Source: Verrucomicrobiaceae bacterium
Lineage (GTDB): Bacteria > Verrucomicrobiota > Verrucomicrobiia > Verrucomicrobiales > Akkermansiaceae
Length of the DNA: 64,000 bases
NCBI GenBank assembly: GCA_051252135.1
Contig: JBPOGH010000001.1
Location: 192,001-256,000 of the forward strand
Direction of reading: 5' to 3'
Position numbers: made by a program. Shown here in pieces: positions 32,301-35,300 of this stretch (positions are counted from its first letter, which is position 1; each line of letters begins with the position of its first letter).

Positions 32301-35300
32301 AGAATTCGTGGACGCTGGCCGGGCAACCCAGTACCTTACCCGATCAGGTTTTCTATAGCCCGGAGCTCAGCCGCACTCAAATTGAAGGAGGTTCCGAGAT
32401 TGCCAGGGAGCAGCATCAGCTTTCCAGGGACGAAGCAGACACGGCCGAGTGTTACTATTACGAGTTTAACTCACAAGGACTCTGCACGACTCCCGGAGCA
32501 TCCTTTATTGTTGAAAGCGGACCTCGCCCACGGGGCTCCGAGCGCCCCATCCTTGGAAAGACACGCAACATCGGCGGCTTCATCCTCTGGAGAAGCGGTG
32601 GCACCTCGCGGATTGCCGATCTGGCCCGAATCGAAGAAATGAGTACCGTCCAATAAGCAATGAACATGACTCCAATTAAGCAGAAATCAGTAAAACGCGG
32701 ATTCACCCTGGCAGAATCCGTCATCGCACTGGGTATCCTGGTTGTTCTTATCACGGGATTCCTGGCGGTGTTTGGTCCTGCGGCAACCGCGATCCGTAAA
32801 ACTCTCTCAGCGCAAGAAGCCAGCCGATTGCAGGCGTCTCTGGAGCAGGAGCTTTCGAACCTGCGTCCCGGTGTCCAGACAAAGCAGTACAAGGACTCTT
32901 TTGAAAAAGCCTTTGAGTGGATTTCCCGTTCCCATGAACAGGGTAATACCATTCTGATCTACAACTACCGGGCTGACCCTGCCGAGACGCGGGATGATGG
33001 CTCATTCCAGCCAGAAGATGATGTTAATGGGGTAGCTGGCGAGGACTATTTGATTCAGTCAATGGTTCGCCGCATCAACGATCCGCTGCTGGAGGAGGAT
33101 TTCGAAGCAATCGTAGGGCGTGTGTTTTTTGTGAAGCTCACCCAATTGATCTTCAAGGACGAAGCGCTTCAAGTGGCCGAGGAAGAGGGAACAATCGTCG
33201 ATCCCTTTTCAGGGGATGGGGATTTCACGACCACCTCTTCGGAGTTTCCGAGTGCCAGTATTTTGGTGGAAGCTCAATTTTTCACCCTTCCAACCCGGTC
33301 ATTTGCTTACGTGACAGGGCCGTTTGACCCTGAAAACTTCACCCGTCCGATTTTCCGGAGAAACCTCGGCCTTCTGCGATAAGCCAATTGATATCCCGCT
33401 GCGAAATGAAAATTCTCTCAAAGAACCAATTTAGGAAAGGCTTCACCTTGGTCGAGCTGTTGGTGGCCATGGCAATCACCGTGATTCTGGTTTCCCTGGT
33501 TGTCGTTATTACCGGAAGTGCTCTCGACGCGTGGCGTGCAGCCAGAAATGAAATTCGGGCATCGCACCAGGCGAAAATCATGCTCGATGCCCTCGGGAAG
33601 GATTTGGAGTCCTTGGTGGTGCGTAAGAACAACAATTACGAGTGGTTGTATGTCACCAGCGAAACGACCGAGATCGGTCCAGTGGGACAACCGAGCCCCA
33701 ACGCGGCAACGCTTGTTTTCCTGACCTCGGCAACAGATCGATACGATGGTAATCTGGGTGTTAACGGTGATGACGAAGGTGGAGACATCTCAGCCGTGGG
33801 ATATCATCTGGAGTTCCGCGACCCGATTTTCGATGATCAGGATGAGCGTTATTCGACATTCGTTCTCTACCGAAATCTGATCAATCCGGATCAAGCTTTC
33901 CAGGGGCTTCTCGCAGCTGAAGATTTGGAGCAGGCCTACAGTGCTGCCTCTGCCGGCCGGACAGAGCAACGCAATTTCATGTGCGAGAACATCTACCAAA
34001 TCAGCGTGATTTTCAACGTAGAGTATGTGGATGAAAGTGATGAAAAAGTCACTGTCCGTGTTCCCGTGATGTCTTCCGGAACCGGAGCCAATGCCGTGAG
34101 TCAGTTCAGCATCACGGGAGATGGAATCCGGACAGATAATTCGACTCCGCGATATTCCGACGGTCGGGTGGTTTCGGTTGATCTGGGGATCACCGTTCTT
34201 TCTGATACCGGCATGAGAACCTTACGGACAAGGACTTTCAATGATGTTGAGCAGAAGGCTAAATTTCTGACGGAGAACAGCTATCCCTACACAAAGCGGA
34301 TCGTCATCCCTCAACCTTAATTTTTTTTCAAACAAGTCTTGCCAAGAGGTAGGGGGGGACATAAACGCTCCCCCGTCAGATCGTGAAGCGCGGGTGGCGG
34401 AATTGGTAGACGCGCTAGACTAAGGATCTAGTGTCCGTTTAGGACGTGGGGGTTCGATTCCCCCCTCGCGCACCATCTGACTGGTAAGCTCAAAAAGCCC
34501 CCCTCCAGGGGGCTTTTGAGTTTAAGCCATTCAGGGTAACGTAGGGTCGGTTAGCTCAGTGGTAGAGCGCTTGCTTCACACGCAAGATGTCACTGGTTCA
34601 AATCCAGTACCGACCACCATCCCTCTCGGCCAACCATCACGAGGGTCAAATCGGAGCAAATTCGCCTTTTCCGCCCTTTTTGCAGACAAAAAACACTGGT
34701 TGAGGTATTTTCCTAGGTAAGAAAGATGTCTTCCAAGGATCGTCGTGGCAAAGAGTGGAAAGAATGGCTGGGTGAAAACGCCCCCAGACTTCTGGCTTAT
34801 GCGCGTCAACGATGCGGCAACCAGCAAGAAGCTGAAGACATTCTTCAAGACACTCTCGTAAAGCTGTGGGATTATCAGGAGGAGCGCGATCATCGTGCTC
34901 CCGATCTTCCTCTCGCATTTTCAGTGATGCGATTTTTGGGAATGGATCACGGAAGAAAGACCGGGAGGCGACAAAGGCGGGACGAGAAGATTATTCAGTT
35001 TCAAACCGGTGAAGACCTCTGGCTGGATACTCCCGCGGAGGAGAATGAGGAAGCGGAGATCCTGCGTTCAGCGGTAGGCGCACTCCCCGAGAAACTTCGG
35101 GAAGTCCTCACCTTGAAAATATGGGGGGGGCTCACTTTTGCGGAGATCGCCGAAGTCTTGACGCTTTCCAACAATACGGCGGCCTCCCGTTATCGCTATG
35201 CCCTTGAGCAACTTAAGAAGAAGCTAAATCACCTGAAAACATCGAGTCATGGATAAAGAACTGATAGAACTGGAATCACGCTTATCTGAGCTCACTCCTA

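What a model noticed while it worked through the whole genome (the two positions that open the first line are those of the whole stretch)
34388..34475. tRNA-Leu(AAG) replaces tRNA-Leu(GAG)
The genome's CUY reader is a tRNA-Leu with anticodon AAG; there is no genuine tRNA-Leu(GAG), although CUC is the commonest Leu codon (65,558 vs CUU 19,417, CUA 2,429). The swap is fixed in the genus and common in Akkermansiaceae including Akkermansia, implying TadA-made inosine on a second tRNA in Verrucomicrobiota.
Evidence so far: Sequence CTAGA-CT-AAG-GA-TCTAG, Rfam 56 bits; the GAG call lies inside g00715; one tadA. A pattern admitting AAG or GAG matched 37 of 42 genus genomes, 43 of 43 matches AAG. GTDB scan: 43 of 80 listed AAG loci are Verrucomicrobiota (Akkermansia, Luteolibacter, Rubritalea, Opitutales), arms paired in 80 of 80.
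(Added by a program. Inside this text positions count along the whole contig: contig position 192,001 is position 1 of the stretch shown here. "Call 12" and the like, gene names such as g00115 and contig names such as C1 are that model's own, and its searches are not shown. The text may have been shortened before it was handed on; [...] marks where a part breaks off. The agent that wrote the report below was given it as the finding of a first reader that could run no searches.)

Follow-up and report, generated by a model that had tools for sequence, protein, structure and literature searches.

The report
A34 leucine tRNA with retuned TadA
This GC-rich bacterium and most of its order, including relatives labelled Akkermansia, have swapped the normal leucine tRNA for one whose anticodon starts with A, which is likely edited to inosine by an enzyme (TadA) whose predicted base-35 pocket residue changes in step with the swap; the trick is known from streptococci, but no report for this lineage was found.

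Summary
Confirmed: window 34388-34475 is a genuine tRNA-Leu(AAG). Of 301 near-complete genomes of the phylum, 47 have AAG, 245 GAG, none both and 9 neither. In the order the split is 109 AAG, 30 GAG, 2 neither of 141. CUC is this genome's commonest Leu codon. Two further signatures point to editing by TadA. First, the AAG anticodon arm matches the host's tRNA-Arg(ACG) arm at positions 30-40 except base 35, while GAG tRNAs never showed C32 or A38. Second, within the order the TadA residue aligned to E. coli R152, proposed in a review to narrow the base-35 pocket, is alanine in 49 of 49 AAG genomes and not alanine in 30 of 30 GAG genomes. This rests on only about two evolutionary events and does not hold in other lineages. 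Inosine was not seen: four RNA-run contig sets showed A only, an uninformative test. Unlike Lactobacillales, no Leu codon shift was found. The kind is known (streptococci), and this scan has already noted tRNA-Leu(AAG) in at least 11 other genomes, so this is a new lineage with a testable enzyme residue.

The parts
34388..34475 (+). tRNA-Leu(AAG) gene, long variable arm, G37, discriminator A, encoded CCA
   Evidence: ARAGORN; Rfam RF00005 56.4 bits; conserved in 36 of 42 genus genomes
34415..34431 (+). Anticodon stem-loop; positions 30-40 equal those of the genome's tRNA-Arg(ACG) except base 35 (C32, A38, A31-U39)
   Evidence: sequence (coordinates); tRNA-Arg(ACG) arm; AAG versus GAG arm counts
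34422..34424 (+). Anticodon AAG; A34 at 34422 is the predicted inosine site
   Evidence: inosine inferred, not measured
34499..34512 (.). GC hairpin with T runs on both strands between the two tRNA genes (terminator-like; function untested)
   Evidence: 3 overlapping sites, shuffles mean 1.0, sd 1.7, so not above chance
34545..34619 (+). tRNA-Val(CAC), ordinary neighbour, linked to the Leu gene in most genus loci

Best explanation
The gene is this lineage's replacement for tRNA-Leu(GAG), and its A34 is likely deaminated to inosine by the cell's single TadA so that it would read both CUU and CUC. Shown: the gene, the either-or distribution of AAG and GAG, descent from the GAG gene body, the Arg-like anticodon arm, and the TadA residue that tracks the swap within the order. 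Inferred path: a G34A change in the GAG gene; then the arm drifts to A38, A31-U39 and C32, copying the loop of TadA's normal substrate tRNA-Arg(ACG), which here already has G37; and TadA loses the arginine at the E. coli R152 position, which would leave room for A instead of C at base 35. Inferred, not shown: inosine itself, and any causal role of that residue.
For: Either-or: 47 AAG, 245 GAG, 0 both, 9 neither of 301 phylum genomes; 109 AAG, 30 GAG, 2 neither of 141 order genomes (two non-tRNA rows dropped). Need: CUC is the top Leu codon here and CUC exceeds CUU in 47 of 55 AAG genomes sampled; an AAG tRNA without detectable inosine read CUU over CUC 87:13 in E. coli (PMC11066159 section 3.1). 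Arm: GTDB-wide, AAG loci had C32 in 97 and A31-U39 in 99 of 117 scored (121 fetched), GAG loci 0 and 0 of 120; A38 was 105 of 117 versus 0 of 120, but the AAG pattern forced a purine at 38. In one search, where 38 was free, all 109 AAG arms have A38 and all 30 GAG arms G38 (read by eye). The loop CUAAGGA fits the S. pyogenes TadA consensus YUAMGRA (bioRxiv 2023.09.19.555891 passages). Enzyme: TadA passes NCBIfam PRK10860 (162 bits, cut-off 150). Its A157 aligns to E. coli R152; this column is A in 41 of 41 AAG and R18/K1/Q1 in 20 of 20 GAG genomes of the order, the best of about 170 columns, and in held-out genomes A in 8 of 8 AAG and not A in 10 of 10 GAG (two GAG rows were misaligned by gaps). 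The column was found before reading that R26 and R152 are proposed to narrow the C35 pocket of E. coli TadA (PMC10586758 passages; the review calls this a hypothesis). An RpoB tree needs at least 2 changes of state and rejects one AAG clade (p-AU 0.022, quick tree). Precedent: full I34 in S. pyogenes and S. mutans tRNA-Leu(AAG).
Against: No inosine seen: contigs of 4 RNA runs from 4 studies covered the site in a closed g19 chromosome (L165:3024) with no other letter; only contigs were on offer, they drop variants and span intergenic DNA, so this neither supports nor refutes. The TadA residue is not a general rule: family f11 (AAG) has K in 14 of 14 like its GAG relative f12 (K 10 of 10), f22 has K, f26 I/L; in other phyla AAG genomes show L9 K5 R5 I3 M2 W H A of 27 and GAG genomes L11 R9 K5 I2 of 27; streptococci keep R; one GAG genome outside the order has A. 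Within the order the match rests on about two independent events. tRNA-Leu(UAG) is present and could share CUC. C32-A38 may tune ribosome binding rather than enzyme binding (recalled, untested). No Leu codon shift accompanies AAG: CUY share -0.017 (se 0.024), C/(C+U) -0.007 (se 0.019) after GC control in 55 AAG and 45 GAG 20-kb samples, 7 of 107 dropped as too short, kin not independent.
Confidence: 0.85

Rival explanations
1. A34 stays unmodified (or only partly edited); the AAG tRNA reads CUU and some CUC, and tRNA-Leu(UAG) covers the rest by four-way wobble.
For: UAG gene present across the genus. Unmodified A34 tRNAs can read C-ending codons in some four-codon boxes, e.g. Pro AGG 56:44, and four-fold-box A34 tRNAs are tolerated in E. 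coli (bioRxiv 10.64898/2026.05.15.725136 section 14). RNA contigs show A. Most plausible for lineages that keep the old GAG-type arm (f22, f26 genus g127).
Against: Does not explain why the arm converges on the Arg(ACG) loop in many phyla or why a TadA residue moves with the tRNA. For AAG itself the unedited ratio was 87:13 against CUC, the commonest Leu codon here.
Confidence: 0.1
2. The tRNA is edited, but the TadA R152-position alanine is a passenger: the tRNA arm alone adapted, and the residue merely marks the same clades.
For: Only about two independent events; streptococci edit AAG with R at this site; f11 shows no change; S. aureus-type TadA already has L there.
Against: Perfect split in 79 of 79 order genomes with a known anticodon, including GAG genera inside the otherwise AAG family f3 and the sister families f4 (GAG, R/K) and f5 (AAG, A); top column of about 170 and one of two residues named in the review.
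Confidence: 0.4
3. The AAG gene arose from tRNA-Leu(UAG) by U34A, which would bring A31-U39 and A38 without any convergence on the Arg loop.
For: The UAG arm in this genus has A31-U39 and A38.
Against: Outside the arm, 12 of 14 AAG bodies are closest to GAG bodies (0.85-0.92) and the other two, including this one, to the own genome's CAG (0.85-0.91); UAG scores 0.58-0.67 (only the own genome's UAG was compared). f11 shows intermediates from the GAG-type arm to the Arg-type arm. C32 is found in no other Leu tRNA of this genome. Transfer of the arm alone by gene conversion is not excluded.
Confidence: 0.05
4. Assembly error or pseudogene.
For: The genome is a 31-contig assembly lacking several tRNAs.
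Against: Same anticodon in 36 of 42 genus genomes with paired stem changes and in closed chromosomes of the family.
Confidence: 0.005

Closest known systems
tRNA-Leu(AAG), edited to IAG by TadA, in Lactobacillales (S. pyogenes, S. mutans, S. pneumoniae TadA in vitro, Oenococcus oeni)
   Same: A34 Leu tRNA that excludes GAG, UAG kept, same 11-base arm core in Streptococcus loci, single TadA.
   Different: Host is 57% GC with CUC dominant, whereas the genera fixed for A34 tRNAs in the 2026 preprint are 60-70% AT; no Leu codon shift seen against the shift reported in PMC13249217; TadA has A at the R152 position while streptococci keep R; inosine not measured.
Bacterial tRNA-Arg(ACG)/TadA system (E. 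coli 1z3a, S. aureus 2b3j, 7cph)
   Same: Same enzyme family; the Leu arm copies the host's Arg(ACG) arm.
   Different: Predicted second substrate with A35 and a long variable arm; E. coli TadA did not edit S. pyogenes tRNA-Leu(AAG).
tRNA-Leu(AAG) genes noted in Mycoplasma, Prochlorococcus and 'some Firmicutes'
   Same: Same anticodon outside Lactobacillales (PMC13249217 and PMC8007984 passages).
   Different: Verrucomicrobiota and Akkermansia are not named in the main texts searched.

Membership tests
A34 tRNA-Leu edited by TadA (Lactobacillales type) | Intact tRNA-Leu gene with anticodon AAG | tested here: met
A34 tRNA-Leu edited by TadA (Lactobacillales type) | Replaces tRNA-Leu(GAG) | tested here: met
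   0 of 301 phylum genomes hold both; 0 of 42 genus genomes hold GAG
A34 tRNA-Leu edited by TadA (Lactobacillales type) | TadA gene with HAE and PCxxC motifs present | tested here: met
   found in 139 of 141 order genomes
A34 tRNA-Leu edited by TadA (Lactobacillales type) | Loop 32-38 fits the widened TadA consensus YUAMGRA | tested here: met
   CUAAGGA
A34 tRNA-Leu edited by TadA (Lactobacillales type) | Inosine at position 34 of the mature tRNA | tested here: inconclusive
   RNA-run contigs only, A in 4 of 4; contigs drop variants
A34 tRNA-Leu edited by TadA (Lactobacillales type) | The host's TadA deaminates the tRNA in vitro | not testable with these tools
   bench assay
IAG-linked leucine codon recoding (PMC13249217) | More CUU/CUC and less UUA in AAG than in GAG families of like GC content | tested here: not met
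   no shift in CUY, CUU or CUC in 20-kb samples; UUA is already rare in these genomes; a reported consequence, not a defining trait of the tRNA

The most novel reading that the evidence does not exclude
Widening of TadA to a second tRNA has happened at least three times in Verrucomicrobiota, and in Verrucomicrobiales one substitution, arginine to alanine at the E. coli R152 position, is the switch that opens the base-35 pocket, co-evolving with an anticodon arm that mimics tRNA-Arg(ACG). This would name a residue behind a specificity change whose basis is open in the papers read, in a GC-rich lineage with a culturable gut member, and it predicts UAAG-type mRNA editing in Akkermansia.
Probability: 0.4. 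Interest if true: 0.72.

Novelty: new member of a known kind. Interest (0 to 1): 0.55.

Why it matters
How bacterial TadA came to accept more than tRNA-Arg is posed as open in the S. pyogenes paper (PMC11472039 passage) and bears on the path to eukaryotic ADAT and on base-editor specificity. This order offers sister families with and without the second substrate, a named residue to swap, and cultured members. It is also an exception to the published picture that fixed A34 tRNAs belong to AT-rich genomes and drive Leu codon recoding. The basic phenomenon is known and recurs in many phyla, which caps the surprise.

Tried and rejected
RNA reads for A-to-G at position 34: 18 of 24 listed runs held the stretch, all as contigs; four were laid, none showed a variant; uninformative, and no tRNA-Arg positive control lay within reach. 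Relaxed ARAGORN scan with introns gave only noise. MFE folding does not recover the cloverleaf (z -2.66), as is common for tRNA. No promoter-like site found. Codon recoding: not found. A universal TadA signature across phyla: not found, best column distance 0.63; the R26-equivalent column does not separate AAG from GAG. f11-specific TadA residues cannot be told from lineage. TadA tree: quick tree only, weakly resolved. Synteny: thin; one upstream gene is shared by one GAG and three AAG loci of f3. Literature searches without a report for this lineage: 0 papers; swamped by general Akkermansia papers, top 25 had no AAG term. Rafels-Ybern 2018 and 2019 are not held; the supplement of PMC13249217, whose Fig. 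S1D lists GtRNAdb taxa, could not be read; figures and supplements of the 2026 preprint were not seen. Any of these, or GtRNAdb itself, may list Akkermansia.

Full report
Observation. Window 34388-34475 holds a tRNA-Leu with anticodon AAG (ARAGORN; Rfam 56.4 bits), followed by tRNA-Val(CAC). The genome (G000, 57% GC, 96.6% complete) has Leu tRNAs CAA, TAA, CAG, TAG and AAG. The single 'GAG' call has no Rfam support and lies in a 522-aa ORF. Several ordinary tRNAs are also missing from this assembly, so I tested absence of GAG in relatives. CUC is the commonest Leu codon: 59,066 against CUG 24,705, CUU 20,962 and CUA 2,733 in 3413 ORFs.

Distribution. In the genus, 36 of 42 genomes have AAG and none GAG. 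In an even draw of 301 phylum genomes at least 90% complete, 47 matched the AAG pattern, 245 the GAG pattern, none both and 9 neither. AAG was found in the own family f1 (21 of 23 plus G000), f5, f11 (21 of 21, another order), f22 and one genus of f26 (another class). In 141 genomes of the order, 109 have AAG (f1 35 of 37 plus G000, f3 33 of 37, f5 36 of 36, f6 3, f8 1), 30 GAG (f4 25, f2 1, f3 4) and 2 neither; two extra rows that are not tRNAs were dropped. A GTDB-wide scan, cut at 121 loci, shows the anticodon also in Lachnospiraceae (about 41 titles), Lactobacillales (11), Cloacimonadota, Fermentibacteria, Actinomarina, planctomycetes and others; 79 of the 80 listed loci were called Leu-AAG.

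Origin. Outside the anticodon arm, 12 of 14 AAG genes are 0.85-0.92 identical to GAG genes of the order and 0.58-0.67 to the own genome's UAG gene; this genome's gene and one other f1 gene are closest to CAG. So the gene most likely descends from GAG. An RpoB tree of 31 genomes places f5 (AAG) as sister to f4 (GAG) with SH-aLRT 97, needs at least two changes, and rejects a single AAG clade (p-AU 0.022; quick tree, one marker). Two gains or a gain plus a reversal fit equally. With f11 and f26 the phylum needs at least three origins if the family groupings hold.

Anticodon arm. Positions 30-40 read GA-CU-AAG-GA-UC, the same as this genome's tRNA-Arg(ACG), GA-CU-ACG-GA-UC, except base 35. GTDB-wide this exact core was in 86 of 117 AAG genes scored; C32 in 97 and A31-U39 in 99, against 0 and 0 of 120 GAG genes. 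A38 was 105 against 0, but my AAG pattern forced a purine there, with 38 free, the split was complete (read by eye). Family f11 holds a series from the GAG-type arm through A39 and A31-U39 to A38, while f22 and f26-g127 keep the old arm. The loop fits the S. pyogenes editing consensus YUAMGRA (bioRxiv 10.1101/2023.09.19.555891, passages), and changes at 32, 37 or 38 blocked E. coli TadA on AAG tRNA (PMC11066159, abstract and sections 3.1 and 4.1).

Enzyme. The genome has one TadA (C12:176651-177178; NCBIfam PRK10860 above cut-off; best solved relatives 7cph, 2b3j, 1z3a). Among 61 order genomes, one column of about 170 separates the states fully: alanine in 41 of 41 AAG, R18/K1/Q1 in 20 of 20 GAG. 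Twenty held-out genomes agreed: A in 8 of 8 AAG, not A in 10 of 10 GAG (6 R, 2 K, 2 rows shifted by gaps), A in 2 f1 genomes where no tRNA was found. The column aligns to E. coli R152. Against generality: f11, f22 and f26 show no such change, streptococci keep arginine, 27 AAG and 27 GAG genomes from other phyla do not differ there, and one GAG genome of another class has alanine. The correlation rests on about two events.

Direct test. Only assembled contigs of RNA runs were available. Four runs from four studies covered the site in G269 without any other letter. Such contigs drop variants and here run through intergenic DNA in one piece, so they probably reflect DNA or precursors; the result is inconclusive.

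Codons. In 20-kb samples around tadA from 55 AAG and 45 GAG genomes (7 of 107 too short), AAG had no effect on CUY share, CUU, CUC, CUA or C/(C+U) after control for GC. This differs from the recoding reported for Lactobacillales (PMC13249217, parts 1-2 of 7 and passages read). CUC exceeds CUU in 47 of 55 AAG samples and is the top Leu codon in 22.

Mechanism. Most likely TadA converts A34 to inosine and the tRNA reads CUU and CUC (0.85). Shown are gene, replacement, arm and residue pattern; inosine and the residue's role are inferred. Rivals: unmodified A34 helped by UAG (0.1); editing with the residue as passenger (0.4, compatible with the main claim); origin from UAG (0.05).

What is known. 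Inosine in tRNA-Leu(AAG) is established in Streptococcus and Oenococcus. The 2026 PNAS Nexus paper names Mycoplasma and Prochlorococcus as further carriers; the 2026 preprint (section 14 and passages) says genera fixed for such tRNAs are 60-70% AT; PMC8007984, PMC11472039 and PMC6297222 (passages) add none. None of these main texts has 'Verrucomicrob'. Searches found no report for this lineage. The two Rafels-Ybern surveys, the PNAS Nexus supplement and the preprint's figures were not seen, so prior listing is possible. This scan holds at least 11 earlier notes on tRNA-Leu(AAG) in other genomes, none found under Verrucomicrobiota/Akkermansia or R152.

Verdict. Real; a new member of a known kind; interest 0.55, raised by a GC-rich, culturable lineage and a named TadA residue that can be swapped, held down by precedent, recurrence in many phyla and no direct sight of inosine.

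Noticed in passing
L033-L153: tRNA-Leu(AAG) is common in Lachnospiraceae (about 41 of 121 titles: Coprococcus, Roseburia, Butyrivibrio, Blautia), a family not named as a carrier in the passages read; also in Cloacimonadota, Fermentibacteria, Actinomarina, Sumerlaeia, Sarcina.
   Followed up: partly
G007:C122:49765-50116, G034:C72, G026:C21, G519:C180; G041:C1:1910048-1910962: Tandem second copies of tRNA-Leu(AAG) about 260 bases apart in four genus genomes, with Val(CAC) between them in the two inspected, and 833 bases apart in an f6 genome.
   Followed up: no
window 34388-34475 versus G000:C1:89595-89681: The AAG gene body resembles the genome's tRNA-Leu(CAG) (0.85 outside the arm; variable arms nearly alike, identical in G008), suggesting conversion between Leu isoacceptors.
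   Followed up: partly
L368-L372 (family f26): All five f26 TadA proteins, AAG and GAG alike, lack about 13 residues of the loop after the DP motif.
   Followed up: no
L494-L498, L501, L504, L505: A conserved ~290-aa gene lies downstream of the AAG tRNA in six f3 and two f5 loci but in none of eight GAG loci; it looks like purU from recall, not tested. Could mark ancestral order or transfer.
   Followed up: no
L488/L297 (G397:C133): tRNA-Leu(GAG) and tadA lie about 4 kb apart in this GAG genome of the mostly AAG family f3.
   Followed up: no
window 31973-34320: Run of three ORFs with pilin-type N-terminal methylation motifs ends just upstream of the tRNA (one below cut-off).
   Followed up: partly
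window 34726-35731: ECF-type sigma factor followed by a 160-aa ORF without Pfam match, possibly an anti-sigma factor.
   Followed up: partly
G000:C21:33012-33104: ARAGORN calls a selenocysteine tRNA.
   Followed up: no
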